In this document: piece by piece, positions 40,411-63,002 of the stretch | Layout of the letters: the number at the start of each line of letters is the position of its first letter | Numbering within the stretch: position 1 is the first letter of the stretch | Assembly: GCA_040954595.2 (NCBI GenBank) | Contig: CM082592.2 | Location: 3,550,735-3,614,734 of the forward strand | DNA length: 64,000 nt | From: Balanoglossus misakiensis | Taxonomy: Eukaryota; Animalia; Hemichordata | Reading direction: 5' to 3' | Notes under the pieces: model-generated | What the model was told of the DNA's origin: nothing | The model's database searches: none | The model's input: the letters and a program-made list of their open reading frames with translations, nothing else | Made by a program: the position numbers and the translations under genes

Positions 40411-42318
40411 CTGAAAACCACGAAAAAAGGACAAACTTTAGTGTAACTTACATGCTTTATATTCTTGAAATCTTAACTAATTGAGAAAAAGCGATCCCTC
40501 GCTTGAATCACTCATGGCTGGGTTTCTATCTTCATAAAATGTGCTCTTCTAAGATGTTGCTATACGCGGGTTCCTCCTTTCTAGGTCACTGAATGTTTAC
40601 AATACAACTGAATAGACACACAGAAAAAATGAGGCGGACTGTAGATCTGTTCCAGTACCATATAATTTAATAAGTTAACTGGTCTTGAGGTCACAGGGTC
40701 GATGGAGGTCAGATGAGAACATGATTATAAGTTACAAATCAAGTCAAGGTCGCGTTATTATACTTTAATTACTTGCACTGTGATGAGATACCAACGCCCA
40801 GTGCGTTGCTATGATACCCAAAACAAGTATTGGGGGGAATATAATAGAATTCACAGTAACAATTGATCCATATCACAATAGCTGAACGCGACAGGAGACT
40901 GTGTCAGTACTTTCAAATGTCGCCGATTCTTTCAAGTGACTTTTTGCTCCGGCCCATATAAACCAGTAATCGGCTCGTTTTACACCGACACTCTGTTCTC
41001 CCGGCGGGAATGGTACCGGACAAGACAAACCTGAATCCTCGCATAAACGCGAACAAAACCCCGCGCCACGACGGTGTAAGTGGCGTGAAGAAGTCCCCTT
41101 CTTTGTGTTGAATCCCCCCATGCACAAAAGTGACACTTTCGCCCCTTTCATCCGTGTTCAATACCCGGGGTTTGAATTTAACAGGGGCAAAGAACAGTGC
41201 GCGCCGGTGATTGAATGGTTTTAATTGGCTGAGAATGCTGATTGGGGTGGACCAGCGAAGGGTAATTGAACCTTCATTGTTCGACAGTTTGGTAAACACG
41301 GCTATAAAGATCTTACATGCTGGGTAGAACTACAGACAGGGACAACACCTTGTTATCTGTGGTAGAACAACGTGTCCATTTAATGAAGCTCAGATTAGCT
41401 CTTTTACACTTGAAGCGCCCCTTGTAACAAGTTCAGGGGGCGACAATCGCCCCTTCTTGAGCAGCCCACCCGGCCAGTACATGCGCGTCCAAGCCTCCAT
41501 AGCAGGCACCGTAGGTCAAAACACTGGGAAAACGGCCTATACATTTTAACTTCCCCCCCCCCCCCCAAACTATGTTGTAGATGACTTTCACATTCATTTA
41601 CGTGTAATTTAGCTCCAGGGCTATAGTGTGCAATTGTTGGAACAGCCTATCTGGATACCGTAGTGAACTTGTTGATATGGCGACTTTTGAAATTGGGTTG
41701 GCAGAACGTAACAATTTTATGCAAATGAAAGAAACTGCGTTCCTGCCATGGCGATTATCAAGAATGTATCAGTTTATAATAATATAACCCGCCCAACAGG
41801 TTCGGATAATCGGTGTTCCACTGTATATTCAATATGGCGAGCTCAACATGTAAACACACAACTTCTCATCCCTCAAAAACATACAGGGGACCCATCTTAA
41901 GTAACGTCCAATGTAAAAGGTCACTGAACTCGTCAGCGTATTATGTGGCTACTCGTACATTGACCTTTTGGGGCGGGATTCTTTTTTGGCGCGCAACCAC
42001 TAGTACCAGGCCCCAGACCAGGAACTGGCGACCCGCCGTTTGTTTCCAACGCCAAATTTGATTCTAATGTTGAATGTCCGAGAAAACAATTTATCTGACC
42101 TGTAGTTTTCTTGGCTCGCTTACGTTTTAATTTGGAAACTTTTAAAAAAATCAAACGCCACCGTCTTGATGACTGGCCCCTATTTTAATAATGGTTTCGT
42201 CGTTTCGCAATGGAAAAGGTCGCTGAACTCGCCAGCTGAAGCGATTGCGAAACAGCGAAACCACAAAAAACTGACATTATTTCCTTAAAGACCACAGAGC
42301 GAAGGATGCATATTGCAA

Positions 42319-42671
42319 TTAAAGGGACAAAGTCTCTCTCTCGCTGCCCTTTTTTTCCATTAATTATATTTGATACAAGACACCGTTTGTTATTCTACAT
42401 GTGGATATATAGTGAATGAACGTTCAACCACACAAAACTTCCATCCCTCTTATAGACAGGAGAGTGAAAAAAATCGCCAAAATGAATCATTGTTCTGTAC
42501 CATTAATTCATTTTGGGCGAGTTTTTACTCTCGTATCATACAAGTGGGATGGAAGTTTTGTGTGGTTGAACGTTCATTCACTATATATCCACATGTAGAA
42601 TAACAAACGGTGTCTTGTATCCAACATAATTAATGGAAAAAGGGCAGCGAGAGAGACTTTGTCCCTTTTAA
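42319..42671. mobile_element. Long fold-back MITE, TTAA-AGGG...CCCT-TTAA (Kolobok-like)
   Basis: About 165-bp inverted arms (AGGGACAAAGTCTCTCTC...GAGAGACTTTGTCCCT) flanked by TTAA. A TTAA target with purine-starting termini fits Kolobok. Confidence 0.85.
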
Positions 42672-42687
42672 GATAATAAAGACTTTT

Positions 42688-43200
42688 GTCTTACCACTCC
42701 CATCAGCGTCTGACCTTCGGCAGTCTACATGTCTGGTCATACATACATACATACATCAACGTGTACATGTCTGATCAGCTGGCAGAAACAGTCAGTTGAC
42801 TTCTGAGTGGCCTCGAGTCAATGTAGTATGTGTCACGCGCAAAGCACCATGGGAGTTCCAACATGAGTAAGCGTTGTGTCTTACCACTCCCATCAGCGTC
42901 TGACCTTCGGCAGTCGGCATACATGTCTGTCATACATACATACATCCACATATACTAGTACATGTCTGATCAGCTGGCATCCGGGTGTCCTATGGGAGTT
43001 CCAACATGAGTAAGCGTTGTGTCTTACCACTCCCATCAGCGTCTGACCTTCGGCAGTCGGCATACATGTCTGTCATACATACATACATCCACATATACTA
43101 GTACATGTCTGATCAGCTGGCATCCGGGTGTCCTTGCGTCGGTGGTAGTGGTATATGTCACACGCAAAGCACCATGGGAGTTCCAACATGAGTAAGCGTT
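42688..43200. repeat. Three imperfect tandem units (starting 42688, 42878, 43021), each with (CATA)n
   Basis: GTCTTACCACTCCCATCAGCGTCTGACCTTCGGCAGTC occurs three times. Each unit carries ACATGTCTGATCAGCTGGCA, near the reverse complement of part of the 82-bp array unit. Confidence 0.85.
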
Positions 43201-43201
43201 C

Positions 43202-43325
43202 CATTCTCCACGCAGAGAATAACCTTGCTAGGGAGTCCGACCACTATAGCCGCTATTTAGTGGCTATTGGGAAGACCCCCTATATAGTCTAGAATTATCC
43301 ACTCCAAGTCTATGCGTGGAGAATG
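43202..43325. mobile_element. Small MITE with TIR CATTCTCCACGCA
   Basis: CATTCTCCACGCAGAG...CTATGCGTGGAGAATG. Confidence 0.65.
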
Positions 43326-44451
43326 TAAGAACTTTTCTGTAAACTTTCCGGGGCATATTATGGAAACTGGAAGCGAAAAACTGGACCATATTTTCGACCG
43401 CTGAAGGGGAGGTTTTAGCGTTTACATGATTTAAAATAACGCACTCTAGCGAAAGTTACCGCAAGTTGAAAATGCCTCAACAAACGTAGACTTGCTCCAA
43501 GTCTATGGGCTGTGTAGGGAACGTGTCGGCCCATACCCGAAACCACAAGCTCAGTCGCAAATTCGAAACTCGCCTCACTACCAAAAACACGCTTAAGGCA
43601 AGCATGCATGCAAAAAAGTATTGAAATTATTTATTAAGACAAAAAACCACCGAAAACACAAAAAGTATTGAGATTTAAAAATCACCAAGCGACTAGTGGG
43701 CTAGTCTACAACAAACGGTCTGTGAGCGGCCATTCAAAATGCAACGGTATGCTAATGAAGGTGGTGCGCTCTGGTTGATTGTCGCGATTTGTTTATGTTT
43801 TTTTTCACTCCGTATGTCAGCTGGCATCATGGCGTACTGTTGCCAACGACGTAGTTTGAAGTTAGCAGGCAGACTAAACAGCGAGCGCGCAGCTTTATTG
43901 TGTGTATATTTTGAAAGACTAATATGTAATGTGTGTGAAATTGCATGGGAGCCCCAAATCGATTTCACTGTACTATCTCATAGGCGTCTAACACATTCCA
44001 ACGAAACCACAAAGATCGAAACCTCAAAATGCGGCAGCAACTTACACTATTTCCTTAAATACCACAAGGCAGGGAGGCATGAATTGCAATTAAGATAATA
44101 AAGAAATTTGGACAATGATACTGTGTTGTGTGAGTTACATGCGTTTCTATATATAACTACTACTCTTACCCCCCATCAGTGTTTGACCCTCGAAAGCTTA
44201 TGGAATATACTCGTACATTGACCTTTTGGGGCGGGATTCTTTTTTGGCGCGCAACCACACCAGGAACTGGCGACCCGCCGTTTGTTTCCAACGCCAAATT
44301 TGATTCTGATGTTGAATTTCCGAAAAAACAATTCATCTGACCTGTAGTTTTCTTGGGTCGCTTACGTTTTAATTTGGAAACTTTTTAAAAAATCATACGC
44401 CACAGTCTTGATGACTGGCCCCTATTTTAATAATGGTTTCGTCGTTTCGCT

Positions 44452-45313
44452 GTTTCGCTTCGTATGTGAAGGACTGTTTCTGCCAGCTGATCGGACATGT
44501 AAGATTTCGAAGTCACCGTTTCGCTTCGCATGTGAAGGCCGTGAAGTAAACTGACTGTTTTCTGCCAGCTGATCGGACATGTAAGATTTCGAAGTCACCG
44601 TTTCGCTTCGCATGTGAAGGCCGTGAAGTAAACTGACTGTTTTCTGCCAGCTGATCGGACATGTAAGATTTCGAAGTCACCGTTTCGCTTCGCATGTGAA
44701 GGCCGTGAAGTAAACTGACTGTTTTCTGCCAGCTGATCGGACATGTAAGATTTCGAAGTCACCGTTTCGCTTCGCATGTGAAGGCCGTGAAGTAAACTGA
44801 CTGTTTTCTGCCAGCTGATCGGACATGTAAGATTTCGAAGTCACCGTTTCGCTTCGCATGTGAAGGCCGTGAAGTAAACTGACTGTTTTCTGCCAGCTGA
44901 TCGGACATGTAAGATTTCGAAGTCACCGTTTCGCTTCGCATGTGAAGGCCGTGAAGTAAACTGACTGTTTTCTGCCAGCTGATCGGACATGTAAGATTTC
45001 GAAGTCACCGCTTCGCTTCGCATGTGAAGGCCGTGAAGTAAACTGACTGTTTTCTGCCAGCTGATCGGACATGTAAGATTTCGAAGTCACCGTTTCGCTT
45101 CGCATGTGAAGGCCGTGAAGTAAACTGACTGTTTTCTGCCAGCTGATCGGACATGTAAGATTTCGAAGTCACCGTTTCGCTTCGCATGTGAAGGCCGTGA
45201 AGTAAACTGACTGTTTTCTGCCAGCTGATCGGACATGTAAGATTTCGAAGTCACCGTTTCGCTTCGCATGTGAAGGCCGTGAAGTCAACTGATCGGACAT
45301 GTAAGATTTCGAA
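44452..45313. repeat. Highly homogeneous 82-bp tandem array (about 10 units)
   Basis: Unit GTCACCGTTTCGCTTCGCATGTGAAGGCCGTGAAGTAAACTGACTGTTTTCTGCCAGCTGATCGGACATGTAAGATTTCGAA starts at 44512, 44594, ... 45250. I saw only one substitution among the full units (~45011). Confidence 0.97.
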
Positions 45314-45392
45314 GGTCAAACAATGATGGGGGGCGGTAAGACAAAAATCTTTATTATCTTAATTGTAATATACCTCATTCGCACTGTGGCAT

Positions 45393-45748
45393 TTAAAGGG
45401 ACAAAGTCTCTCTCTCGCTGCCCTTTTTTCCATTAATTATATTTGATACAAGACACCGTTTGTTATTCTACATGTGGATATATAGTGAATCAAAATTCAA
45501 CCACACGCAACTTCCATCCCTCTTATAGACAGGAGAGTGAAAAAAACTCGCCAAAATGAATAATCGTTCTTTACCATTTATTCATTTTGGGCGAGTTTTT
45601 AATCTCATATCATACAAATGGGATGGAAGTTGTGTGTGGTTTAACGTAGATTCACTATATATCCACATGTACATTAACATAACCAGTGTCTTGTATCAAA
45701 CATAATTAATGGAATAAGGGTAGCTGGAGAGAGACTTTGTCCCTTTAA
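45393..45748. mobile_element. Second copy of the Kolobok-like fold-back MITE
   Basis: TTAA-AGGGACAAAGTC...GACTTTGTCCCT-TTAA; homologous to 42319-42671. Confidence 0.85.
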
Positions 45749-45987
45749 GGAAATAATGTCAGTTTTTTTGTGGTTTCGCTGTTTCGCAACTTCCACTTGC
45801 ATATGCGGCGATTGACATAAGACAGGCCGGACCGCGTGACCTTTTCCACTTGGACATGAGACGTGAAAAATTGAATGGTACATGTGTCAGTGTTCAGTGC
45901 ACAAAAGAATCTTACATAAACCCATCACTGCCCCTATTAAAATGCATAGTTTGTGTGTTTTTGTTTGTTTGTGTGTTTTTGTTTTAG

Positions 45988-46571
45988 AATACAATTAAAA
46001 GAAATTAAAAACAATATAAAAATATAAATAAAATAAAAACGAGATTACAAACAAAATTGAATAAAAAGAAAATTGAAAAGAAAAGACGACAAAATAAAAT
46101 GAAAAGAAATTAAAAACAACATAAAACATAAATAAAATAAAAACGAAATTACAAACAAAATAGAATAAAAAGAAAATTGAAAAGAAAAGACAACAAAATA
46201 AAATGAAAAGAAATTAAAAACAACATAAAAACATAAATAAAATAAAAACGAGATTACAAACAAAATTGAATAAAAAGAAAATTGAAAAGAAAAGACGACA
46301 AAATACAATGAAAAGTAATTAAAAACAAAACAAAATAAACAAACATAAAAACGAAATTAAAAACAAAATTGAATAAAAAAATTTGAACAGAAAATAAAAC
46401 AAAATACAATGAAAAGAAAATGATAAGAAAAAAGAAAAGAAAAATGAAAAGAAAATGAAAAGAAATAAAAAAAAACAGTAAAAAATAAATAAAATCAAAA
46501 CGAAATTAAAAAAAATGAATAAAAAAAATGGAAAAGAAAATGAAAAGAAAAATAAAGTGAAATGAAATGAA
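45988..46571. repeat. A-rich tandem repeat, ~105-bp period, degenerating 3'
   Basis: ATTAAAAACAA recurs at 46004, 46109, 46213 and 46318, with strong A-strand bias. Confidence 0.85.
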
Positions 46572-47093
46572 CATTTTTTCACCCATGGACGAAATCTGCC
46601 GTGAGCCTACAGGGCTGGGACCATATTTTCGACCGGTGAAGTAACCTTCGGAAAGTCGCCGCAATATCAATATTTCAGCAAATAATTCCAAAATCCATTT
46701 GGATGGCACGAACTAAGACATGTTAGGGGAGGTTTTCGCGTTTACATGATTTAAAAATAACGCCGGTCTGTGAGCGGCCATTCAAAATGCAACGGTCCTG
46801 ATGGTGCGCTCTGGCTATCGTTTACAAGTGTTGCGTAATGTAAGTGGAACCAGTATCTGGTTTACCATGGGGAGTCTGCAATCACAGACAGTGTACATGC
46901 TTTTGGTCTTGTCAACAGAACTGTAAATCTCAAGACCATGGCAGTTGGCTTAAGCCAATCGAAAAATCGGAAATAAAATAGAGAGAAATAGTGTTAACAG
47001 CCCATCTCGCAAACATGCTTGAATCATTCCATAAATATAGGCCAAACAACCACGAGGCAGGGACCATTGGATTAACACAGACTTAACTGGAAG

Positions 47094-48092
47094 ATGGGGA
47101 TTCTGCAATTGCCGGACGACGTACTGGTCAGAATAATGAAGTTTCTACCAACAACGAAGCTGTATTTCGACATACGACGCGTGTGTCGGAAGTTTGCGGC
47201 AATTTGCCAGTATCCTGAGGTCTGGCAAAACATAAAGCTTTCCGCCTGGTGGCCGTATCTGACTTCACCACAACTCGAAGATGTTTTATCTCGCGCAAGT
47301 AATTCGTGCAAACAATTAGACCTATCAGAAGCTTTGATATGTACAATTGACTTAGAGAATGACGATGGCTCTTATACAAAGACTCTACAGTCTGCGGAAA
47401 AGTGCCTCGCGCATTTTGTCAGAAAGTCCACCGGTTTATCCCACTTGAGTTTAAAGGGATTACAGGTAAACGCAAAAGCGTATGGATCCATGCATGGACC
47501 GGAGGATGGATTTGGTTTCCTCAAATCGGCCAAAAACCTGCGTTCGTTGAATCTTAGTGGAACTGCATTCTCCAATGATGATTTGGAATGGCTGACAAAC
47601 AATAAACTACTTCGTGAATTGCATCTGTCAAACACAGACGTAAATTCACTTGACGGCTTCCCAAGTCTACCCAACCTGAGGAAACTGCGTCTGAACAACT
47701 TGGACATTGCGAATAGGGATCTAGAATATTTGGGAGCGTTGACTTCACTGGAATGTTTGTCGCTTAAGGGCTGTTTTAATTTAAAGATGGATCGTTTGCC
47801 GCCCAATCCTACTTTAAGGGTTTTGAATATAAGCAGTAGTCGGGCTTGGGGAAACTACGAAATTGACGAATTGTCAATGGAATGGTTGACAAATTTCCCC
47901 AATTTGGTCGAATTTTACGCCAAGGGCCGTTACTTTAAACAAATACTGACATTTCCACGCATGACCAAGTTACAACGCATCGATCTGTGTGACCCATATC
48001 CTTTCAGAGAATATGACAAACAGTCACTGGAACACGTGTGTTCGCGTACTCCAAATGCAGAAATAATTTTCAGTTCCTGGAAGCCTTACTAA
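47094..48092 (+). CDS. Intronless F-box/LRR protein, copy 1 (332 aa, C-terminally truncated by deletions)
   Basis: F-box LQLPDDVLVRIMKFLP...RRVCRKFAAICQYPEVW; LRRs LRSLNLSGT, LRELHLSNT, LRKLRLNNL, LECLSLKGC; TATA-like ATAAATATAG at ~47031. Confidence 0.85.
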   Translation: MGILQLPDDVLVRIMKFLPTTKLYFDIRRVCRKFAAICQYPEVWQNIKLSAWWPYLTSPQLEDVLSRASNSCKQLDLSEALICTIDLENDDGSYTKTLQSAEKCLAHFVRKSTGLSHLSLKGLQVNAKAYGSMHGPEDGFGFLKSAKNLRSLNLSGTAFSNDDLEWLTNNKLLRELHLSNTDVNSLDGFPSLPNLRKLRLNNLDIANRDLEYLGALTSLECLSLKGCFNLKMDRLPPNPTLRVLNISSSRAWGNYEIDELSMEWLTNFPNLVEFYAKGRYFKQILTFPRMTKLQRIDLCDPYPFREYDKQSLEHVCSRTPNAEIIFSSWKPY

Positions 48093-48232
48093 CTTAAAAC
48101 ATCTGTGTATGTGTCCCGGGCGATAATTGGCTGGATAGAAACTATATTAGACTATTATCATTGACATACAATAGTATAGGCGTTTGAGTGTTTTTTTCTT
48201 TAATTTCATAACATTGTTCTTATGTATTCTGT

Positions 48233-48403
48233 GGCTAGTTACACTTTGCGAAACAGCGAAACGAAACAGGGAAACGACGAAACCATTATTACAATAGGGG
48301 CCAGTCATCAAGACGGTGGCGTATGATTTTTTTAACGCCACCGTCTTGATGACTGGCCCCTATTTTATTAATGGTTTCGTTGTTTCGCAAAGTATAACTA
48401 GCC
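48233..48403. mobile_element. Palindromic MITE-like element (GGCTAGTTA..TTTGCGAAAC termini)
   Basis: GGCTAGTTACACTTTGCGAAAC...GTTTCGCAAAGTATAACTAGCC. The inner arms match the ends of the 41950-42208 and 44208-44450 modules. No target-site duplication is evident. Confidence 0.7.
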
Positions 48404-48669
48404 TATTCATGGTCCATATACAGTAGGAATAATTAGTTGAAAGTACAACACGTAAAGTTTCTGATGGTGTACATGCTTTTGGTCTTGTCAACAGAACTGT
48501 AAATCTCAAGACCATGGCAGTTGGCTTAAGCCAATCGAAAAATCGGAAATAAAATAGAGAGAAATAGTGTTAACAGCCCATCTCGCAAACATGCTTGAAT
48601 CATTCCATAAATATAGGCCAAACAACCACGAGGCAGGGACCATTGGATTAACACAGACTTAACTGGAAG

Positions 48670-49752
48670 ATGGGGATTCTGCAATTGCCGGACGACGTAC
48701 TGGTCAGAATAATGAAGTTTCTACCAACAACGAAGCTGTATTTCGACATACGACGCGTGTGTCGGAAGTTTGCGGCAATTTGCCAGTATCCTGAGGTCTG
48801 GCAAAACATAAAGCTTTCCGCCTGGTGGCCGTATCTGACTTCACCACAACTCGAAGATGTTTTATCTCGCGCAAGTAAGTCGTGCAAACAATTAGACCTA
48901 TCAGAAGCTTTGATATGTACAATTGACTTAGAGAATGACGATGGCTCTTATACAAAGACTCTACAGTCTGCGGAAAAGTGCCTCGCGCATTTTGTCAGAA
49001 AGTCCACCGGTTTATCCCACTTGAGTTTAAAGGGATTACAGGTAAACGCAAAAGCGTATGGATCCATGCATGGACCGGAGGATGGATTTGGTTTCCTCAA
49101 ATCGGCCAAAAACCTGCGTTCGTTGAATCTTAGTGGAACTGCATTCTCCAATGATGATTTGGAATGGCTGACAAACAATAAACTACTTCGTGAATTGCAT
49201 CTGTCAAACACAGACGTAAATTCACTTGACGGCTTCCCAAGTCTACCCAACCTGAGGAAACTGCGTCTGAACAACTTGGACATTGCGAATAGGGATCTAG
49301 AATATTTGGGAGCGTTGACTTCACTGGAATGTTTGTCGCTTAAGGGCTGTTTTAATTTAAAGATGGATCGTTTGCCGCCCAATCCTACTTTAAGGGTTTT
49401 GAATATAAGCAGTAGTCGGGCTTGGGGAAACTACGAAATTGACGAATTGTCAATGGAATGGTTGACAAATTTCCCCAATTTGGTCGAATTTTACGCCAAG
49501 GGCCGTTACTTTAAACAAATACTGACATTTCCACGCATGACCAAGTTACAACGCATCGATCTGTGTGACCCATATCCTTTCAGAGAATATGACAAACAGT
49601 CACTGGAACACGTGTGTTCGCGTACTCCAAATGCAGAAATAATTTCATGTTTCGGTCGGTTCCCAATAGACAGCGAGGCAGAGTTCCTGGAAGCCTTACT
49701 ACGTAAGAAACACCCTAACTTAAAACATCTGTGTATGTGTCCCGGGCGATAA
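48670..49752 (+). CDS. Intronless F-box/LRR protein, copy 2 (360 aa, apparently intact)
   Basis: Same F-box and LRR motifs as copy 1, with the full C-terminus ...EFLEALLRKKHPNLKHLCMCPGR; AATAAA at ~50165. Confidence 0.9.
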   Translation: MGILQLPDDVLVRIMKFLPTTKLYFDIRRVCRKFAAICQYPEVWQNIKLSAWWPYLTSPQLEDVLSRASKSCKQLDLSEALICTIDLENDDGSYTKTLQSAEKCLAHFVRKSTGLSHLSLKGLQVNAKAYGSMHGPEDGFGFLKSAKNLRSLNLSGTAFSNDDLEWLTNNKLLRELHLSNTDVNSLDGFPSLPNLRKLRLNNLDIANRDLEYLGALTSLECLSLKGCFNLKMDRLPPNPTLRVLNISSSRAWGNYEIDELSMEWLTNFPNLVEFYAKGRYFKQILTFPRMTKLQRIDLCDPYPFREYDKQSLEHVCSRTPNAEIISCFGRFPIDSEAEFLEALLRKKHPNLKHLCMCPGR

Positions 49753-49858
49753 TTGGCTGGATAGAAACTATATTAGACTATTATCATTGACATACAATAG
49801 TATAGGCGTTTGAGTGTTTTTTTCTTTAATTTCATAACATTGTTCTTATGTATTCTGT

Positions 49859-50029
49859 GGCTAGTTACACTTTGCGAAACAGCGAAACGAAACAGGGAAA
49901 CGACGAAACCATTATTACAATAGGGGCCAGTCATCAAGACGGTGGCGTATGATTTTTTTAACGCCACCGTCTTGATGACTGGCCCCTATTTTATTAATGG
50001 TTTCGTTGTTTCGCAAAGTATAACTAGCC
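49859..50029. mobile_element. Duplicate of the palindromic MITE-like element
   Basis: Same sequence as 48233-48403, offset 1626. Confidence 0.7.
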
Positions 50030-50290
50030 TATTCATGGTCCATATACAGTAGGAATAATTAGTTGAAAGTACAACACGTAAAGTTTCTGATGTACTTTCC
50101 GCCTGACTTAATCTTAGTATGGAACGGTTTTATTTAGTTGTAGTATTACTGTATGTATTAATAGAATAAATATAATTATTATCTACTTGAATCGCCAGAT
50201 CTCCTAGCTATTTATTCGTGTGGGCATGACAATGAATGATTGATTGATTTGAGAAAAGACAACTTTTATTTCGATATTTCACAGAAACTA

Positions 50291-52339: not shown

Positions 52340-53578
52340 TCATTCGGGCCATGTTAACAAGTCGTCGCAGCTGTCACTTTGAGCAGAGGAGAGTCCTCTG
52401 GTAACAATATCTTCATCAGAAAATCCGCTGGAGCTCGAATCATCTCCTTGATCGACGTCGTCAGAAAATGTGTAAAAGATCTCCTTGGGTAGAACCAAAG
52501 AATAAAGAATATCATTGTGTGTATTGCCGTACGCAATTATCTTATATTCAAGATTGACAATAAACTGCCTGGGACTCGACAAGTTGTGATCGTAATATTT
52601 GTTGAGCGAGAGTGATAATTTTTTGCCTCTGATATCATTAACGCCACTATCAAGGCATAGACGTTCCATCCAGGCAACAAATAAAGTGATCGCTTTGAAC
52701 GGTATAACCAAAGCAACACATTCTCCCTTGGCATCATGCCGCGTGGGGAAATCTCGGAATCCTGTCCGACTATTCTCTTCTAAGAGTTTCCCATCGAAAG
52801 CTTTGTCTAAGGATCTTTTGACATTACTATTCAAAACAGCGTGAATAAGCATAGTCTGCAGATCATCAAATTGGTATCTGTCATGAGTGTTAATCAAGAC
52901 TTTTAGCTGGCCATCTTCACTGCAAATTTTGTGACGGGAGAAATCACTTGTGTCCACCGAGAATCCTTTCTGATTCAACAAGAAATGCAGTGGTGACCCA
53001 ACGAAATTAAATGTGTTTGTCTCCTTGATTTTGCCCTCTTCTTGGCCATAAAACAACCCTCGTGTGAGAATGTTTGATATGATGCCGTGACTGGATATAT
53101 GCATTACGTCATTCGACGTAACCAATATACCTCGTCCGGCGGCAGTCTTATTTCTGATCATGTATTCTGGAAATAACGTTGTCTTGTTACCAGTCGCTGC
53201 CGGAATTACGAGTGCCTTATTACAACCGCTAGAATCCGCCAAGCAAACTGACCAAGTGTACATGTAATTGTCATAGTCTCGGTTGACAGATTCCTGGAGT
53301 CGCACATCGGCCTTTTCTAGTACCCACCATTTTGGCAAGGGGCCATCTGTAAAATCCTCTCCTACATCGTCACCAGAAATTATTACATCTCTAGAAGATA
53401 TTGACGTATTACTGACCGTGTGCTCACTCCATTTCTCCTTATCAATACCACCGACGCGGTACGAGTAGCTCCTTTCACTGTCACTTGTTTCAAATGCTGT
53501 GAAAGGAGTGTTCGCCGTTACCACTAGGGAACGCGAGATTGACCTATGTACCCACCTATTCGCTTTGACGTAGGCCAT
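52340..53578 (-). CDS. Intronless orphan protein (412 aa) with acidic C-terminus
   Basis: Long ORF, Kozak atcATGG, TATA-like ATATATTTAAG ~30 bp upstream; I recognise no domain. Confidence 0.8.
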   Translation of the reverse strand: MAYVKANRWVHRSISRSLVVTANTPFTAFETSDSERSYSYRVGGIDKEKWSEHTVSNTSISSRDVIISGDDVGEDFTDGPLPKWWVLEKADVRLQESVNRDYDNYMYTWSVCLADSSGCNKALVIPAATGNKTTLFPEYMIRNKTAAGRGILVTSNDVMHISSHGIISNILTRGLFYGQEEGKIKETNTFNFVGSPLHFLLNQKGFSVDTSDFSRHKICSEDGQLKVLINTHDRYQFDDLQTMLIHAVLNSNVKRSLDKAFDGKLLEENSRTGFRDFPTRHDAKGECVALVIPFKAITLFVAWMERLCLDSGVNDIRGKKLSLSLNKYYDHNLSSPRQFIVNLEYKIIAYGNTHNDILYSLVLPKEIFYTFSDDVDQGDDSSSSGFSDEDIVTRGLSSAQSDSCDDLLTWPE

Positions 53579-54051
53579 GATTTATACGGAGCAACCCCAT
53601 CAACTTAAATATATCCGTTTCATATCAATGAATGACACTCGATCGTCATGTTTGCACATTTAATCCAAACTGTACGTTTTGGATAACAAAAACTCACATG
53701 AATTTGTCATACAGTCCAGGGATCGTGTTAACGCAGAATTCCGCGTCCGGGACGCAAGCTTTTTTGCTGTGATGTCTGCGTCCGGGGAACCCCAGCTGAG
53801 CGCACACTGCAGTAATTAATGATCGTCTTGTAATTTTAAATTGTTTATTCAAAAACGCTTTTACGGCTTGCTAATCCAGAAGAATGACACTTGTAAACAA
53901 AAACAAAGTGTGAAATAATCATTTGACTAAAGCATGTTAGAGTTTTCCTGACAACAAAAGAAAAACTGGCTTCGTTTTTTCTTTGGCAGGTCCGCCAATT
54001 GCCTTGTCAACAAGTTGTGAACGATGTGTCATTAATTAGGGGCCGATGTCG

Positions 54052-54230
54052 AGAGCGGGTGGTCGCGCGCGATCGCGGGACGTACCCATGCAGCCGGCCG
54101 ACTGCATCGAGCGGTGGACCCGATGTACCGCGCACGGTCAATCGAACGCGCGTGACCTTGTTTTCGACAGTTCAGCGGGTGTCTTTGTTGACTCTCTGTG
54201 TTTGATTTCCGCAAAAAAAGAAAATTTCTC
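54052..54230 (+). repeat. Left arm of a diverged ~180-bp GC/CpG-rich inverted repeat
   Basis: GGTCGCGCGCGATCGCGGGA...CCCGATGTACCGCGCACGGTCA...GAAAATTTCTC is the reverse complement, with indels, of 59161-59335. Confidence 0.85.
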
Positions 54231-55122: not shown

Positions 55123-55596
55123 CTAGATGCATAGACGGACACTCCAGTGAAGATTATCATCACATATTATGTACAGGTACATATGTAACCCCTTGGTGAG
55201 TTCCACGTTAAAATCTGCATGACAGAAAGATGAGTTTTGTTTACTGCACATTGTCGACGAAATTGCATCGGGAGGAGAGATTAATTCTATCACGCATCGT
55301 TCAGCGACAATATCTGGTCTAAACGTGACCTTTATAGCCCACAGGTAGACATTGCAGATTGCTTGTACACCCACAGATTCAACGAAAGGGCCAAGTTTGT
55401 CCGGAATGAACATCCACTCTGGTTTCACCGTATCTGTGGTCGCTCCTTGTCTCACGGGAGTCAATACAGGGACAGACAAGACGCACGTGACAAAAAGGCA
55501 CCCCACAAAATACACCAAACAAGCAACTTTAGTCCCGTCCGACTTCACTGGTTCATCGTCCAGTAAACGGGTGATGAAATCTTCATCTTCCTCCAT
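55123..55596 (-). CDS. Small membrane protein (157 aa), probable signal-anchor
   Basis: Acidic N-terminus, hydrophobic VACLVYFVGCLFVTCVLSVPVL, Cys-containing C-terminal domain; divergent from 55655 with only a 58-bp gap. Confidence 0.7.
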   Translation of the reverse strand: MEEDEDFITRLLDDEPVKSDGTKVACLVYFVGCLFVTCVLSVPVLTPVRQGATTDTVKPEWMFIPDKLGPFVESVGVQAICNVYLWAIKVTFRPDIVAERCVIELISPPDAISSTMCSKQNSSFCHADFNVELTKGLHMYLYIICDDNLHWSVRLCI

Positions 55597-55654: not shown

Positions 55655-56140
55655 ATGGAGAGATTTCTTGTAATATTTACAACGTGTTTCATGGTCGCCT
55701 TGTCTGCAGAATTGCCAACCGTGTTAGTAGGTGATTTGTACGTCGGCTTATCACCTATATTTTATCCGAGTGCGTGTATTAATGAGAGTGGTGCAAGTTG
55801 TTTGCGTGAAATAAATGGATTGGTGTATGTAGACTGCGACAGACGGCTATGCGAACGCCCCTTTTCGCTCTCTCGTTGCACTGGGCAACAACCAGGCTAT
55901 AATAAGGGTGACCACGGAGAAGTTTGGGTGGAACCGGATAAGGGGTGTCGCTTTCTCGGAGGTTACTGCGCTTACACGGGTCGCAACAATCTTGTCGGCA
56001 TTTGTGTTCCGGCGTGGAAAAGGGACGTCGACCAACGTTTATTTCCTAAGTTGGTACCTCGTAATAGTATATGTCTAAGCAAATGTGACACGGATGTAGA
56101 ACTATGGGGTGGTGACGCATCATTCTGTACTTGTGGTTAA
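55655..56140 (+). CDS. Secreted Cys-rich protein (161 aa)
   Basis: Signal peptide MERFLVIFTTCFMVALSA, about 12 Cys in the mature part, terminal FCTCG, Kozak gtcATGG. Confidence 0.8.
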   Translation: MERFLVIFTTCFMVALSAELPTVLVGDLYVGLSPIFYPSACINESGASCLREINGLVYVDCDRRLCERPFSLSRCTGQQPGYNKGDHGEVWVEPDKGCRFLGGYCAYTGRNNLVGICVPAWKRDVDQRLFPKLVPRNSICLSKCDTDVELWGGDASFCTCG

Positions 56141-56256: not shown

Positions 56257-57489
56257 ATGACAGTTATGTTTATCGTAACTGTCTTTTTACTGCATTGTTT
56301 ATGTTTATCCCAAACATTTTCATATATCTGTACAGAAGATCACAGCCATTGTGCAGGTCCTATCACCGAGTTAATGCGCGCATTCGATGTTGAATACTCA
56401 CTAACGGCATACCATCTAATTCCGGCAGACAATGAGGAAGTGTCTTGTAAACACTTTTCTACAGCGTTAGAATGCACTTGCACAAGCAGCGATGTCGTTA
56501 TTCATTATCCTGCGGATCACCTGATAACACTCCAGCGGAAAAACGACGACGTAATCACGGTTCTACCAGGATGTAATTCGACGTTTCGGATAGTCATAAC
56601 TGATCCCATGCTATCCGCAGATAGCGCCACCATGGGGCAAGAACCATACTGGTTGCGTGGGCCAGCCTGCGGATTGTTTGTAATACAGCGAGGCAACATA
56701 GTTTTGAAAGACATCACCGTTGACAACTCGGTTTGCATGCAAACCCTTGAAATTGAATACGGGTGTTGGCATAGGGTCGAGTCTGCGGCCATATTTGTTA
56801 CGGGGTTACATATAGTTTCTGATATTAAACTCAGTAATCTGAAAGTGGTGACGTCCGATAGAGATGGGAAGGAATGGAACGTCCCTCCTTTGCTCGCATA
56901 TTTTGCGAGTTCGTCCGCGTTTGAGGTTCTTCGTTTGCAAAATATTACCATTGACGAGATAGCGAACGTGTCAGTCAAATTTGAACAGTGCGTTGGCCAA
57001 GCACATGTAGGCACTAAGCACGGCGCCGAAGCTACTGTTGTCGTAGAATATTTTCCCCTTCTTGACACAAAACCATTGATTGTAGATACTCCTGTTACTA
57101 GAATTTTTGATATGTCCCAATGGCTAGGACCCACTCTCTTGTACAAAATATACGCAGACTATCGGCGCCAAGATCGAAACGAATGGACACTTTACTTGTT
57201 TGGTGCATTAATAGTGATTGCTATTACGTTCGTTGTTATTCAGATTACTATATGGTTTTGCAGGGTCGACTCTGGCAGTCACCCAGGAGATATTTACGAC
57301 GCATTAGGAGCAGTTGCTATGGACAAATTAAAACAACGCAAGAAGCGTAGACACCAACACGAGACCAAAAACTCTCATTACAACAAATATTCTGACTTTC
57401 GCAAATTGTATCATTCGTCTGACGAGGATGACGCAAATCGAGTTGTGTTTGACCAGTCACAGAGATTTTTACACAATGATAGACTATAG
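56257..57489 (+). CDS. Type I membrane glycoprotein-like orphan (~410 aa)
   Basis: First ATG at 56257, signal peptide MTVMFIVTVFLLHCLCLS, Cys-rich then beta-rich ectodomain, TM WTLYLFGALIVIAITFVVIQITIWFC, basic tail KLKQRKKRRH; AATAAA at ~57578. Confidence 0.85.
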   Translation: MTVMFIVTVFLLHCLCLSQTFSYICTEDHSHCAGPITELMRAFDVEYSLTAYHLIPADNEEVSCKHFSTALECTCTSSDVVIHYPADHLITLQRKNDDVITVLPGCNSTFRIVITDPMLSADSATMGQEPYWLRGPACGLFVIQRGNIVLKDITVDNSVCMQTLEIEYGCWHRVESAAIFVTGLHIVSDIKLSNLKVVTSDRDGKEWNVPPLLAYFASSSAFEVLRLQNITIDEIANVSVKFEQCVGQAHVGTKHGAEATVVVEYFPLLDTKPLIVDTPVTRIFDMSQWLGPTLLYKIYADYRRQDRNEWTLYLFGALIVIAITFVVIQITIWFCRVDSGSHPGDIYDALGAVAMDKLKQRKKRRHQHETKNSHYNKYSDFRKLYHSSDEDDANRVVFDQSQRFLHNDRL

Positions 57490-58916: not shown

Positions 58917-59029
58917 TAGACTCTCTCACAGCCGTTTGGCAAGAGAGAAACACCTTCTGGTGTTGTGGACACACATGCAATCAGACTATGAGCCTGCATG
59001 GACGGCGAGAGGGGCTGTGAGAGAGTCTA
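58917..59029. mobile_element. Internally deleted copy of the 15317-15490 MITE family inside the virus-like block
   Basis: Same TIRs (TAGACTCTCTCACAGCC...GGCTGTGAGAGAGTCTA) and shared internal CCGTTTGGCAAG, CACACATGCAATCAG and AGCCTGCATGGACG. Confidence 0.88.
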
Positions 59030-59160
59030 TATACATGTAATCAGAGATCTGCCCACGGTGGTCGGCGCCGGTCGCGCGCGACCGGCACTCTCAGGCCGAG
59101 ACCAGAACAAAAAGGTCGCGACCATTGCTATTGTTCGCTGTGATACACGCACTTTGGCGT

Positions 59161-59335
59161 GAGAAATTTTCTTTTTCGGCGGAAATCAAACACATGGGAC
59201 CAGAGAGTCCACAAAGACAGCCGCTAAACTGTCGATAACAAGGTCGCACGCGTTCGACTGACCGTGCGCGGTACATCGGGTCTACAGCTGGATGCAGCCG
59301 GCTGGGTCCCGCGATCGCGCGCGACCATCCACTCT
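59161..59335 (-). repeat. Right arm of the ~180-bp GC-rich inverted repeat
   Basis: Reverse complement of 54052-54230; a perfect 20-bp palindrome GCCGGTCGCGCGCGACCGGC lies nearby at 59067-59086. Confidence 0.85.
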
Positions 59336-59694
59336 TGAGATCGACTCCAAAGTCGTTGTCACGGTCGGGATTGCTAATTGCCTCGATCGGTATAAAATTG
59401 TAGTCAATGAAACCCCAAAAATCGTCATCATTGTTGATGTGGCTGTCATGAAAATGTCCAGCGAAAAATTTGCTGTCTTCCGGGTTTACAAAGCAAAGGA
59501 AAGACGCATACTGTCAAAGGTCACGTAATTAGGTCATGTCGACAACGCTTACATCGAGCTCATGAATAGTAATAATCTCATTAATATGCATGAGCCCGAC
59601 AACCACTTCGTTTTGGCTCGGCAAAACCCTGTCATGTTCATGTGATACCAAATGTCGTAATATTAACGTACAGTTTGACTAAAAGGGATAAACC

Positions 59695-60232
59695 ATGTCG
59701 GATTTTATGCATCTATATTTCACCACGTGTTGTATGTTGGCCTTAGCGTCAAATTTCGCGTATAGCCACACCTTGCATAGCATTAACAGCTCATCGGATA
59801 GCATCCGAAGCCCCGAAACATTACCCATACAAACAGAGGAAGCCATTGACGACGTTGTGTCGCCACCAAACAGAGATGAGAATAGAATCAATTCGTCTCA
59901 TGCTAAGAGCGCTATTGAAAACAAAACAATATTCACAATGCATGACTACAGACAACTGAAAACTCGTCTGACCAATGTCACACACGTACAAGCGTAGTCG
60001 ATGTGACTAGTAGACACGTACATGTATGTACAACCTATTACGTAGTAGGGAAGCGGATAAGACATGCCAGAAGGTTCATGCGCAAGTGGGATTGTATTCC
60101 ACGCGCCTTTCGCAGACTAGATACATGACATCACGGACAAGATACTTCCCAAATTCGATACATTACGTCATGTACAGGAGGCCATCCGGACCAGCCGCCT
60201 TTTGCAAATTCAAAACATGGTGTCATAGGTAA
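59695..60232 (+). pseudogene. Probable disrupted secreted-protein gene (ORFs 59695-59997 and 60026-60232)
   Basis: The first ORF has a Kozak accATG and a signal peptide. The second ends in TAA closely followed by AATAAA. The break contains a duplicated ACACGTACA and a TACATGTA. Confidence 0.45.
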
Positions 60233-60539
60233 CAAATAAAACGATGCACAGAAATACAAAGTATGCATCAAATCATGACGCAAGAGTTTGATTCTTTCGC
60301 AATAGTGATGAATTGTAGTCATGACTAACAGAAGCGCGTTAGTTATTTTACCGACGTCAACGAACGTGACATAAGCACAAAGTAACAAGAATGCCCTGAC
60401 CACTCACGATTGTTATTTAAATTAGCGCCATATATGAGGTCACCAGTATAAAACCGAGTAGAATGGCTAAGATAAAGAGAACTGACTGATGCTCTGACAC
60501 ATGTATGTGTGTTGAACGCCTGCGTGTACGGTGAGAATA

Positions 60540-62258
60540 ATGAGTTCTGGTGCCTCTGGTTCCGATTTTGCCTACCTATATCGTCGTGTGATTCAACTTT
60601 CTGAACCATCCAACGAAACAATCCCGAATGATGTGGACGATAGTTTTCATGCCAAAGGCACGTACGGCCTCTGCCAATTTCGACCAAGAAGCGGGACCAT
60701 CGTCAAACAGAGTCGTGGATTCAAGAGAGACCGGACGAAGTTACATATCAAGAATAATTTTATTACTAATCTGGAGACATCTCTCGCCAAAGAGGCTCTC
60801 ATTATGCGATACCTGAACAAAAAAGATGCGACGTCGTACAGATATCTTCCGAAACTGCTATCTTTTCAGATCGTGGCTTACAGACACTCGTCTGGAAACA
60901 TAATTCGGATGGTTCCGGAACTGCAAATGGAATTTGCCGGAGTAGACCTGCACAGGTTTTGCATCGTAGATGGCAATCTTGTCAACGTTCAACACTTACT
61001 GAAACAAGCATTAGAAGCGCTGCAGTTTCTCAGTGCGCATGGGGTACTTCATTGCGATATCACGTTGTCGAACATTACTTTCCATCGGGAACTGTCTCGG
61101 TTTAAGTTGATCGACTTCGGGTATGCTGAATTTATTCATGCAGATATTGTCGATAAAATGGCGTTCACGTCACCGCATTCTGAGATTCCACTTGGTGCGT
61201 CTCGCATGAAGGCGCTACAGACAGGAAATAGTCCATATTCTAAATCGCATTTACCTCGCGGTATCTTGTTGCATTCTCTGGACCCGTGTCCTGAAGAAAA
61301 TACAATCAGTGCATGCACTCAGACGACACCGTTGCCGTACTATGACCCAAGTATTGCTCTGTCAGATGAAATAGAAACAGAATCATATAGCCATGAGAGT
61401 GATTGTTTTTCGTTGGCATGTGCAGCGGTGATGGTAATGGGTCTTCCCATGTACAGAGATAGAGACCTCGCGACAGTCACTTATCATATTCTACAATCTG
61501 TGACATGCCCGGTCCAAGCTCAACGTTGTATCGACCACTTAACGCGTGTCTGTCGCTCAATTAACTTACTTAGAGGGCCACTCGACGACATCGAAATTGC
61601 GTTCTGGAAGTCAATGATAAACAAAGATATACGACTGATACATGAACTGGGATTCAACTATCTGGGACCAAGGCTTCTCGATCGAGTTAATTGGATATAC
61701 GGCGACTATGTAGTTAAAGCCCTGAAATCGATGTTGCACCCTATCAGAAGTTTTAGATCACCTGCGGCTGATACTCTGCTTCTTTTGGATCAAGTGCCAC
61801 ATGTAACTGCTGATTATGACACGGATGTAGATGGCCTATCTCACGCTCGTCAACTCACAGACAGGTATATAGTCCACACAGCCAAGTACACTATCAGTCC
61901 GTCACACGACATCCCAGTTGCATCAATCACTCTGGCAACGCGTGTAGATGGACACCGATTTGTGCCAATATTCACTGATGATCGTCTCGTCGTTAAGTGG
62001 TTCAATATTACATGCCCACGTGTTCACTATAAAAACGTCATAACGAAACTTCTCTGTGGCATATATCGCTCCCATTCCAAAGGAAGCCCGTCGCTTCAGG
62101 TACCTCGTGAGAGACTATTATCTCTCCGATTTGAGGTTTTGCACAAACACGAGCGTGGCTTAATTCACTCGTGTTTTGTGGAAACATTCGGCGCTATCTA
62201 CGTACATGACAAAATGATCGTAAATGCAGTGGATATTGACGTCGATTTGACCGAATAG
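60540..62258 (+). CDS. Divergent intronless Ser/Thr protein kinase with a long C-terminal extension (572 aa)
   Basis: Gly loop AKGTYG, beta3 IVK, alphaC KEALIMRYL, catalytic loop LHCDITLSNI, LIDFGYA, subdomain IX SDCFSLA; TATAAAA at ~60447. Confidence 0.88.
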   Translation: MSSGASGSDFAYLYRRVIQLSEPSNETIPNDVDDSFHAKGTYGLCQFRPRSGTIVKQSRGFKRDRTKLHIKNNFITNLETSLAKEALIMRYLNKKDATSYRYLPKLLSFQIVAYRHSSGNIIRMVPELQMEFAGVDLHRFCIVDGNLVNVQHLLKQALEALQFLSAHGVLHCDITLSNITFHRELSRFKLIDFGYAEFIHADIVDKMAFTSPHSEIPLGASRMKALQTGNSPYSKSHLPRGILLHSLDPCPEENTISACTQTTPLPYYDPSIALSDEIETESYSHESDCFSLACAAVMVMGLPMYRDRDLATVTYHILQSVTCPVQAQRCIDHLTRVCRSINLLRGPLDDIEIAFWKSMINKDIRLIHELGFNYLGPRLLDRVNWIYGDYVVKALKSMLHPIRSFRSPAADTLLLLDQVPHVTADYDTDVDGLSHARQLTDRYIVHTAKYTISPSHDIPVASITLATRVDGHRFVPIFTDDRLVVKWFNITCPRVHYKNVITKLLCGIYRSHSKGSPSLQVPRERLLSLRFEVLHKHERGLIHSCFVETFGAIYVHDKMIVNAVDIDVDLTE

Positions 62259-62273
62259 AACTTCGACATTAGG

Positions 62274-63002
62274 ATGGACGGATGCGAATACCGGGTAGTG
62301 CATTCCACCAACAGGCGCGCAGAGATGGTTTTCTTCATGGTTAACATCGTCTCATCTCAAGTGATTGGTCATAGGAAACCTCCTGATGACATGGAGATGT
62401 CGTCATCGGTACACCTTCGAGGATCTAAACTGCAGCACACAATGTTTGAAGTCGCCAATCCTTTGACACACTCGTCCACAGTACTGAACTTCGCTTCTAC
62501 TGGAGCAACTACTGTTACCGTAAGAGGTAATTACCTACTGAGAACACGAGCCAGTCTGGATTTTGCTTACCATCAGGGACTGGCTTTCAACAAACGAAGA
62601 CTGGTGCTGTTACCGTTCTCTACGAATAACTTAAATTACTCTGGGCGTTTGTACGGGGTGATGAACCCACACCAGGTCAAAGACTGTCTTTGTAACAGCG
62701 AACGGTGTATAGTAGACAAGAACGATCAATTTCCCTCTATAAAATTAACTTTTGAACAAGATGGTTTAACCAGCCAAAAAGTGTGTTTTCAACTATTTGT
62801 CCCAACGATGTCTATTAATACTCAATTTCAAACTTGGGACACGCTTTACGAGAGCAGTCAGAGAATGTTAGATATCATACTCCGTTATGCCGATTTTAAT
62901 CAGGATCTGTGTACTATGTGTGTAAATGCAGAGACGTTAAAAGGCCGCAAACTTTGTAAAAATGAAGTAGATGAGATATACGATAACTTTAGTCGGGCAT
63001 AG
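62274..63002 (+). CDS. Intronless orphan protein (242 aa) with CxC-x4-C and CxxC motifs
   Basis: Starts 15 bp after the kinase stop, Kozak aggATGG; I recognise no domain. Confidence 0.78.
   Translation: MDGCEYRVVHSTNRRAEMVFFMVNIVSSQVIGHRKPPDDMEMSSSVHLRGSKLQHTMFEVANPLTHSSTVLNFASTGATTVTVRGNYLLRTRASLDFAYHQGLAFNKRRLVLLPFSTNNLNYSGRLYGVMNPHQVKDCLCNSERCIVDKNDQFPSIKLTFEQDGLTSQKVCFQLFVPTMSINTQFQTWDTLYESSQRMLDIILRYADFNQDLCTMCVNAETLKGRKLCKNEVDEIYDNFSRA

What the first reader, a model, noticed from the sequence alone, without database searches (positions are those of the whole stretch)
41950..63002. Candidate endogenous large nuclear DNA virus (possibly herpesvirus-like) or giant virus-like element in an invertebrate chromosome
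Seen: after intron-rich host genes, a repeat-rich 5-kb zone leads into 11 densely packed genes. Most are intronless, several have a TATA-like box ~30-90 bp upstream, a strong Kozak context and an AATAAA near the stop. Convergent genes have interleaved polyA signals (~57553 minus, ~57578 plus), and gaps are as short as 15, 58 and 116 bp. The cargo is two type I membrane glycoprotein-like proteins, small Cys-rich secreted or anchored proteins, an F-box/LRR, a coiled-coil protein and a divergent kinase. Knowledge: this layout is typical of large dsDNA viruses transcribed by host Pol II (e.g. Herpesvirales); malacoherpesvirus-like sequences have been reported in invertebrate assemblies, and herpesvirus-transposon hybrids (Teratorn) occur in fish. 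Inference: this is one end of an integrated, possibly undescribed virus lineage. No capsid, terminase, polymerase or transposase gene is visible here.
Basis: partly seen in the sequence, partly recalled or inferred. Interest (0 to 1): 0.9.

Follow-up and report, generated by a model that had tools for sequence, protein, structure and literature searches.

The report
Fish-herpesvirus-like element in invertebrate chromosome
An invertebrate chromosome carries what is likely one end of a herpesvirus related to those of fish and frogs, likely present in about five near-identical copies, and one of its genes is predicted to fold like a TATA-binding protein, which would give a job to a long-unexplained fish-herpesvirus gene.

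Summary
The 11 ORFs are real (10 ORFs of 150 aa or more against 0.12 in shuffles) and are not host genes. The last ORF (62274-63002) decides the reading: its confident model has the TBP fold (Z 14.0), its best viral structure match is ranid herpesvirus 2 ORF75, and its family's motifs recur in order in Teratorn 'ORF34-like' proteins. That points to fish/frog alloherpesviruses, not malacoherpesviruses or giant viruses. The kinase-TBP-like pair is adjacent in a second, unrelated contig and probably a third. In one run the cluster's contigs are about five times haploid depth and differ from the assembly at 0.05% against 1.5% in host DNA, so it is likely a recent multi-copy element. Host-type repeats lie between its genes. 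At least one gene is spliced, and the F-box gene is tandemly duplicated. Not shown: capsid, terminase, polymerase, transposase, or any contig bridging the 5.7-kb repeat junction, so family membership and integration are inferred. My literature searches found no TBP annotation for alloherpesvirus ORF34. Verdict: likely the end of an endogenous herpesvirus of an undescribed, probably invertebrate-hosted lineage.

The parts
41176..46890 (.). Repeat zone holding the host-element junction; exact end not located
   Evidence: Depth jumps from ~45 to 10^3-10^5 at 41176; duplicated blocks and hairpins; no TTAGGG run
42315..42679 (.). High-copy hairpin element with TTAAAGGG ends, MITE-like (label from recall); second copy 45389-45756
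   Evidence: 91% identical pair, self-inverted; very high depth
44472..45292 (.). 82-bp tandem array, 10 copies, 99% matches
45988..46571 (.). A-rich satellite-like stretch
46891..50092 (+). Tandem duplication of a ~1.6-kb unit holding the F-box gene
   Evidence: 1 mismatch in 1557 aligned bases plus a 50-nt indel; collapsed contig depth 193
47094..48092 (+). F-box/LRR gene, copy 1 (332 aa, shortened 3' end)
   Evidence: Pfam F-box-like E 9e-09
48670..49752 (+). F-box/LRR gene, copy 2 (360 aa); likely recruits host ubiquitin ligase
   Evidence: Pfam F-box-like E 8.9e-09; role inferred from the domain
50291..51292 (-). Type I membrane glycoprotein-like ORF, 333 aa, 26 Cys, 8 sequons
   Evidence: no Pfam family
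52340..53578 (-). Orphan ORF, 412 aa
   Evidence: No family; Atlas only weak capsid-like leads at 0.82-0.85; fold failed, pLDDT 32.5
54036..54230 (.). Medium-copy repeat; inverted partner at 59161-59351
   Evidence: 80% identical over 203 nt; contig depth ~650
55123..55596 (-). 157-aa ORF with an N-terminal membrane anchor
55655..56140 (+). 161-aa Cys-rich, likely secreted protein
56257..57489 (+). Type I membrane glycoprotein-like ORF, 410 aa
57692..58831 (-). Spliced coiled-coil gene: intron 57779-57870, and a second intron with acceptor at 58042 (donor 58138 or 58108); 316 or 326 aa
   Evidence: X3 contig geometry fits the spliced form: 352 and 191 letters expected, 352.2 and 190.7 found; frames
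58929..59029 (.). Repeat shared with host DNA at 15372-15490
   Evidence: 76% identity, E 1e-20; 58929-59013 lies inside an element-depth contig
59695..60232 (+). 100-aa ORF, probably extended by a second exon to a stop at 60232
   Evidence: GT-AG introns keep a frame open to 60232, AATAAA at 60235; inferred
60540..62258 (+). Divergent Ser/Thr kinase, 572 aa
   Evidence: Pfam Pkinase E 7.8e-11; only 2 relatives, 37% and 32% identical
62274..63002 (+). TBP-fold protein of the alloherpesvirus ORF34-like family, 242 aa

Best explanation
This is likely the end region of a herpesvirus related to fish and frog alloherpesviruses, likely integrated in an invertebrate chromosome and likely multiplied recently to about five near-identical copies. 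Shown: intact non-host ORFs, a kinase next to a TBP-fold gene, excess depth, low divergence, host-type repeats between genes. Inferred working: the genes are read by host RNA polymerase II (TATA-like boxes, polyA signals, GT-AG introns); the viral TBP-like protein would bind an ATTAA-type box and switch on late genes such as the membrane and secreted proteins, as the TBP mimic of beta- and gammaherpesviruses does; the F-box/LRR protein would send host proteins to ubiquitin ligases. The copies most likely spread by the element's own re-integration, as Teratorn does (about 0.55), rather than by passive host duplication (about 0.3) or extra episomal DNA from one integrated copy (about 0.15); no mobility gene is in view.
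For: TBP fold: model pLDDT 84.5; PDB Foldseek rows 1-44 are TBP structures; VIA Z 14.0, rmsd 3.1, 175 aligned, next unrelated fold Z 6.3; Atlas 23 of 30 hits TBP set, viruses. Herpes link: top BFVD hit ranid herpesvirus 2 ORF75, E 3.8e-10, TMq 0.64, 17% identity, against E 2.9e-08 and TMq 0.52 for the next. The family's motif series recurs in order and near-equal spacing in the Teratorn 'ORF34-like' proteins of PMC5601938 supplement file 2 (compared by eye). Relatives lie on contigs of 144, 178 and 198 kb and, separately, of 1.3-5 Mb. Synteny: L001 has kinase then TBP-like gene, 32% and 56% identical; P0001 and P0004 share a longest-contig length of 5345. Copies: four X1 element contigs at depth 130-139 against 28-29 for two difference-free host contigs, ratio 4.6-4.9; 6 differences in 12,825 nt against 59 in 3,911 nt. 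Residence in the host: a host-shared repeat sits inside an element-depth contig. ATTAA box 33-44 nt upstream in 4 of 10 genes, all with predicted secretory or membrane products.
Against: No Herpesvirales hallmark gene is in the window; the herpes link rests on one gene. TBP-like genes also occur in nucleocytoviruses, mirusviruses and nimaviruses. 15 of the 40 significant BFVD rows carry no name, so a closer non-alloherpes match is not excluded. The Teratorn match is by eye, and no sequence search returned a named alloherpesvirus protein. The window's clade is long-branched, at 22-28% identity to the longer relatives. No listed contig bridges the junction. Depth comes from one sample, contig depth is a rough copy measure, and contigs drop rare variants. 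The ATTAA motif and window were chosen after looking, and one secreted gene (161 aa) lacks it. Six of ten genes have no relative or family.
Confidence: 0.72

Rival explanations
1. A free or episomal herpesvirus infecting the sequenced animal, wrongly joined to the chromosome through shared repeats.
For: About fivefold depth and near-identity fit a clonal infection; no listed contig bridges 41.2-46.9 kb; the junction is a 5.7-kb repeat zone.
Against: High-copy repeats sit in five intergenic stretches within 17 kb, and element-depth contigs run into them, including one shared with host DNA at 15.4 kb. The relative L001 also has kilobases of gene-poor repetitive DNA beside its kinase. Distant relatives lie on megabase contigs.
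Confidence: 0.12
2. An integrated large DNA virus of another group (nucleocytovirus, mirusvirus or nimavirus-like) that shares a TBP-like gene with alloherpesviruses by gene exchange.
For: Atlas top clusters are Nucleocytoviricota; most named BFVD rows are nucleocytovirus TBP-like proteins; nimavirus core genes include a kinase and a TBP and the elements are multi-copy (PMC10871703 passages); mirusviruses carry TBP (PMC10132985 passages); weak jelly-roll leads for the 412-aa ORF; L001 carries a matrixin.
Against: The best structural score is an alloherpesvirus protein; the motif series matches Teratorn ORF34-like proteins; five IMG/VR scans with kinase and TBP-like queries found no relative; spliced, polyadenylated genes fit nuclear Pol II transcription.
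Confidence: 0.1
3. A host gene cluster of fast-evolving immune or surface genes, recently amplified by segmental duplication.
For: F-box/LRR, kinase and Cys-rich secreted proteins are common in animal genomes; GC content is like the host's; host repeats are interspersed; some introns.
Against: The TBP-fold protein is 13-17% identical to cellular TBP, so it is not a host TBP paralogue; the kinase has only two relatives among 5,817 candidates scored; the kinase-TBP-like pair is conserved as an intronless pair with a 15-bp gap or an overlap.
Confidence: 0.04

Closest known systems
Teratorn and Teratorn-like endogenous alloherpesviruses of teleost fish (PMC5601938, PMC5822658, PMC10175614)
   Same: Chromosomal herpesvirus-like element in several copies (2-30 per haploid genome in the passages read); ORF34-like gene; kinase genes.
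   Different: Reported as teleost-specific; this host is an invertebrate (CpG o/e 0.92). The protein here is 242 aa and lacks the C-terminal part that ORF34-like proteins carry. No piggyBac transposase or terminal repeat is identified. In Teratorn subtype 1 the ORF34-like gene is not next to the kinase.
Alloherpesviridae, ranid herpesvirus 2 ORF75
   Same: Best structural match, 243 columns, TMq 0.64.
   Different: 440 aa against 242 aa, 17% identity; a frog virus. That ORF75 is the IcHV-1 ORF34 counterpart is my inference; no call states it.
Beta/gammaherpesvirus viral TBP (KSHV ORF24, EBV BcRF1, HCMV UL87)
   Same: TBP fold (BFVD ranks 7, 12, 17, 32); binds a TATTWAA late box (PMC13345323 passages), like the ATTAA boxes here.
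   Different: A domain of a 550-1000-aa protein with a separate polymerase-binding domain; here a stand-alone TBP-sized protein.
[quoted passage not shown]
   Same: Endogenous, divergent herpesviruses in invertebrate chromosomes.
   Different: Placed by polymerase between Ortho- and Malacoherpesviridae; gene content was not visible to me (supplements closed), so they may or may not be this lineage.
Acipenserid herpesvirus 3 (PMC12031113)
   Same: Alloherpesvirus integrated next to host transposon clusters.
   Different: Vertebrate host, telomere-like repeats at the junction; no TTAGGG run here.
Endogenous nimaviruses of crustaceans (PMC10871703)
   Same: Multi-copy endogenous large DNA viruses with kinase and TBP core genes.
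   Different: 22-477 copies; no named nimavirus protein among the 50 BFVD rows shown.

Membership tests
Herpesvirales | HK97-fold major capsid, triplex, protease, portal | not testable with these tools
   None identified among the window's ORFs; the element runs off the window and no genome is held. A Pfam Herpes_UL6 hit on the 410-aa ORF (E 0.035, 13 bits against cut-off 27) is treated as noise.
Herpesvirales | Terminase ATPase and family B DNA polymerase | not testable with these tools
   Outside the window if present.
Herpesvirales | Host Pol II gene layout: TATA-like boxes, polyA signals, occasional GT-AG introns | tested here: met
   7 of 10 genes with a TATA-like hexamer; 5 of 11 stops with a polyA signal; one intron supported by X3. 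Not specific to herpesviruses.
Alloherpesviridae | ORF34-like gene, one of 15 genes used to find Teratorn-like viruses | tested here: met
   Top BFVD hit RaHV-2 ORF75; motif series shared with Teratorn ORF34-like proteins (by eye); gene list.
Alloherpesviridae | The other core genes and placement in a polymerase or terminase tree | not testable with these tools
   Not in the window.
Alloherpesviridae | Fish or amphibian host | tested here: not met
   Flank has CpG o/e 0.92, about 1.5% contig differences, and TACATGTA 18 times against 1.65 expected: invertebrate-like by established knowledge. Phylum not determined.
Teratorn-like elements | Several intact, near-identical chromosomal copies | tested here: inconclusive
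   Depth ratio 4.6-4.9 and 0.05% differences, but one sample, and chromosomal location of the other copies not shown.
Teratorn-like elements | piggyBac transposase, TIRs and TTAA target site | tested here: inconclusive
   No transposase ORF in the window; TTAA-ended hairpins in the junction are high-copy repeats; the far end is not visible.
Malacoherpesviridae | Homology to OsHV-1 or abalone herpesvirus proteins | tested here: inconclusive
   No named malacoherpesvirus row among 50 BFVD rows, but 15 of the 40 significant rows are unnamed; only one protein could be folded well.
Nucleocytoviricota / Mirusviricota / Nimaviridae | Double jelly-roll capsid, own RNA polymerase, packaging ATPase, or PIF genes | not testable with these tools
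   None in the window; TBP-like genes alone do not assign.
TBP-fold proteins | Two-repeat saddle fold | tested here: met
   Z 14.0, rmsd 3.1, 175 aligned to yeast TBP; Foldseek E 2.1e-08.
TBP-fold proteins | Binds TATA-like DNA | not testable with these tools
   Needs a binding assay; Asn24, Asn119/121 and Phe153 are near-invariant in 29 family rows.

The most novel reading that the evidence does not exclude
An undescribed family-level lineage of invertebrate herpesviruses, sister to the fish and frog alloherpesviruses, lives as a still-multiplying giant element in invertebrate germlines and drives its late genes with a stand-alone viral TBP. Alloherpesvirus ORF34 is then the missing TBP mimic, and TBP-driven late transcription, known from beta- and gammaherpesviruses, would be ancestral to Herpesvirales and link them to mirusvirus TBP.
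Probability: 0.4. Interest if true: 0.88.

Novelty: new variant of a known kind. Interest (0 to 1): 0.72.

Why it matters
Described invertebrate herpesviruses are almost all molluscan, and multi-copy endogenous herpesviruses are described from fish. An alloherpesvirus-linked element in an invertebrate chromosome would widen both, and bears on where vertebrate herpesviruses came from. Separately, the TBP fold gives a testable function to ORF34, a conserved alloherpesvirus gene annotated as hypothetical, and raises the question whether a viral TBP is ancient in the order.

Tried and rejected
No whole genome is held, so downstream core genes could not be sought. IMG/VR scans found no relative for the kinase, the TBP-like alignments or the 412-aa ORF (6 of 6 answered scans). 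The prokaryote genome scan gave one 29-residue match, taken as chance. Of 80 metagenome loci kept (118 matched), only L001 is a true relative; L002 is a bacterial-type kinase locus and the other 78 were not opened, being short catalytic-loop matches. Pfam, NCBIfam and PDB sequence searches did not recognise the TBP-like protein. P0022, 1 of the 19 representative hits, was dropped as unrelated; short fragments were left out of the tree (17 rows). The 412-aa ORF fold failed, its capsid-like Atlas leads are below 0.9 and it had no phage match. Rfam found nothing. No RNA holder was listed; parts of the cluster that X3 does not cover are not used as evidence. Kinase matches in the PDB cover only the catalytic loop (best Cdc7) and do not place it. 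Six answered look-ups of earlier findings returned nothing. The inverted pair 54036/59161 was considered as transposon ends or a herpes-type inverted repeat; its ~650 depth shows a dispersed medium-copy repeat, so neither is claimed. No complex prediction was run.
Full report
Observation. Eleven ATG ORFs lie at 47094-63002. Ten are 150 aa or longer, against a mean of 0.12 in 50 shuffles and 2 in the first 36 kb. The flank holds intron-rich WD40 and septin genes, with CpG o/e 0.92, which fits an invertebrate; the phylum was not determined. The cluster is less dense than described (63% coding, 7 of 10 gaps over 500 bp). The F-box/LRR gene is a near-perfect tandem duplicate whose first copy is shortened. 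The coiled-coil gene is spliced.

The deciding gene. The 242-aa ORF had no Pfam, NCBIfam or PDB sequence match. It has two close relatives at 56% and 72% and 19 hits among cluster representatives, one of them spurious. Of the members read, none carries a useful name. The Atlas placed it with viral TBPs (23 of 30 hits, top score 0.90, 178 of 256 features). A model from a 29-row alignment had pLDDT 84.5. It matched TBP in the PDB (Foldseek E 2.1e-08; Z 14.0, rmsd 3.1, 175 aligned, next unrelated fold 6.3) at only 13-17% identity, so it is not a host TBP. Among predicted viral structures the best match was ORF75 of ranid herpesvirus 2, an alloherpesvirus (E 3.8e-10, TMq 0.64), ahead of a giant-virus TBP (E 2.9e-08, TMq 0.52) and of beta/gammaherpesvirus UL87/BcRF1. 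Fifteen of the 40 significant rows are unnamed.

The ORF34 link. I read the eight 'ORF34-like' translations in supplement file 2 of the Teratorn paper PMC5601938 (main text not read). By eye they carry the family's motifs in the same order: VNxV, NxN followed eight residues later by YG-x-x-N, QLF then INxQ, CxxxE-type, LxxxEK, and NPE. Counted on the first entry, the spacings are 8, 7, 33, 11 and 62, against 8, 8, 35, 11 in the window protein and 55-73 for the last step in the longer relatives. Two of the eight entries are N-terminally short and show only the later motifs. This is a by-eye comparison, not a scored one. ORF34 is one of 15 herpesvirus genes used to find Teratorn-like viruses (PMC5822658 and PMC10175614 passages). 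The window's protein falls in a starred clade of seven ~240-aa proteins that lack the C-terminal part, on a long branch from the longer forms.

Synteny. The kinase has two relatives among 5,817 candidates (37%, 32%). Metagenome locus L001 encodes one of them, directly followed by the 56% TBP-like relative. The other kinase and the 72% relative share a longest-contig length of 5345 nt, so they are probably neighbours too. No other window ORF matched L001.

Copy number and age. Three runs of one sample hold the stretch. In X1 four element contigs have depth 130-139 and the collapsed F-box contig 193. Host contigs listed have 28-46, and the two without differences have 28 and 28.9. Taking those as haploid gives 4.6-4.9 and 6.8: about five copies, some with the duplication. 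X2 shows the same direction (listed element contigs 278-684, host mostly 71-165, one at 288). Five long X1 element contigs differ from the assembly at 6 of 12,825 sites, and eight host contigs at 59 of 3,911; the 342-nt gapped contig and two repeat contigs were left out. The assembled copy is therefore much closer to the majority form than host alleles are to each other. Contig depth is a rough measure, contigs drop rare variants, and this is one sample.

Integration. Depth reaches hundreds to 10^5 at 41.2-46.9 kb and in intergenic stretches near 51.3-52.3, 53.7-54.7, 59.0-59.5 and 63.5-64 kb: high-copy repeats. One, at 58929-59029, matches host DNA at 15372-15490 and lies largely within an element-depth contig, so the multi-copy form carries it. 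This favours long residence in this host's nuclei. No listed contig bridges the junction, and no telomeric run or clear terminal repeat was found, so a mis-joined episome is not excluded.

Transcription. X3 is listed as 'DNA?', but three of its contigs leave the genome at splice sites. One 543-nt contig fits a spliced form of the coiled-coil gene exactly: 352 and 191 letters expected in two bins, 352.2 and 190.7 found, against 444 and 99 if unspliced. X3 contigs also cover the 3' half of the TBP-like gene and beyond. I infer that some element genes are transcribed; levels cannot be read from contigs.

Mechanism. Shown: the fold, the gene order, the depth and divergence, one intron. Inferred: a nuclear virus using host Pol II; a viral TBP that would start late genes, as KSHV ORF24 does at TATTWAA (PMC13345323 passages). 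Four of ten genes, all with predicted membrane or secreted products, have ATTAA 33-44 nt upstream (p about 0.001, chosen after looking), while the F-box, coiled-coil, kinase and 412-aa genes have TATA-type boxes. The route of copying is not visible; re-integration by the element's own means is my best guess.

Comparison and novelty. It works like Teratorn, but I do not file it in Alloherpesviridae: the host criterion fails and the hallmark genes could not be tested. [quoted passage not shown] Those are placed away from alloherpesviruses or not compared with them. On TBP: searches listed 14, 816 (20 shown), 4 and 5 papers. Passages read in PMC9503944, PMC10132985 and PMC12768974 mention host or mirusvirus TBP only. 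The SalHV-1 structure paper PMC13030845 and the IcHV-1 cryo-EM preprint have no occurrence of TATA or TBP in the main text. Passages of PMC12031113, PMC12638877, PMC12567609 and PMC10871703 were also read. Most subscription papers are not searched, so absence in print is not proven.

Verdict. Likely an endogenous, recently multiplied herpesvirus of an undescribed lineage linked to alloherpesviruses (0.72). New variant of a known kind; interest 0.72.

Noticed in passing
PMC5601938 supplement file 2; BFVD Q14W31: Alloherpesvirus and Teratorn 'hypothetical protein ORF34-like' appears to be a TBP-fold protein with an extra C-terminal part. Searches and term counts in two structure papers found no such annotation.
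   Followed up: partly
upstream of 51292, 55596, 56257, 59695: ATTAA box 33-44 nt before the start in four genes with predicted membrane or secreted products; binomial p about 0.001 but chosen after looking.
   Followed up: partly
L001:7603-8292: A matrixin-type metalloprotease (Pfam M10, E 6.4e-06) overlaps the end of the TBP-like gene on the opposite strand in the relative.
   Followed up: partly
L001:1-5300: Gene-poor repetitive DNA with one 152-aa orphan ORF behind a TATATA box; the relative may itself be endogenous in an animal.
   Followed up: partly
P0012 cluster; P0019, P0023, P0043: Unnamed family members lie on 1.3-5 Mb contigs, some as fragments, and on 144-198 kb contigs: probably further endogenous and complete herpes-like genomes.
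   Followed up: no
run X3 on window 24501-24840, 30591-32160, 57564-57778: Three contigs leave the genome at or within 2 nt of splice sites, so this run, listed as 'DNA?', behaves like RNA. It also covers 62625-63088 and 63126-63430.
   Followed up: yes
window 36076-39456 minus: Host gene with one 1,126-codon Ser/Arg/Pro-rich exon, an 84-bp internal repeat and no Pfam family; its likely promoter at ~41.0-41.3 kb abuts the repeat zone.
   Followed up: no
window 3397-5965 and 24290-30780: Host WD40 gene (WSB-like, label from recall) and a septin gene.
   Followed up: partly
window 48233-48403 and 49859-50029: A hairpin repeat after each F-box copy shares an arm with repeats at 42142-42210 and 44384-44462.
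   Followed up: no
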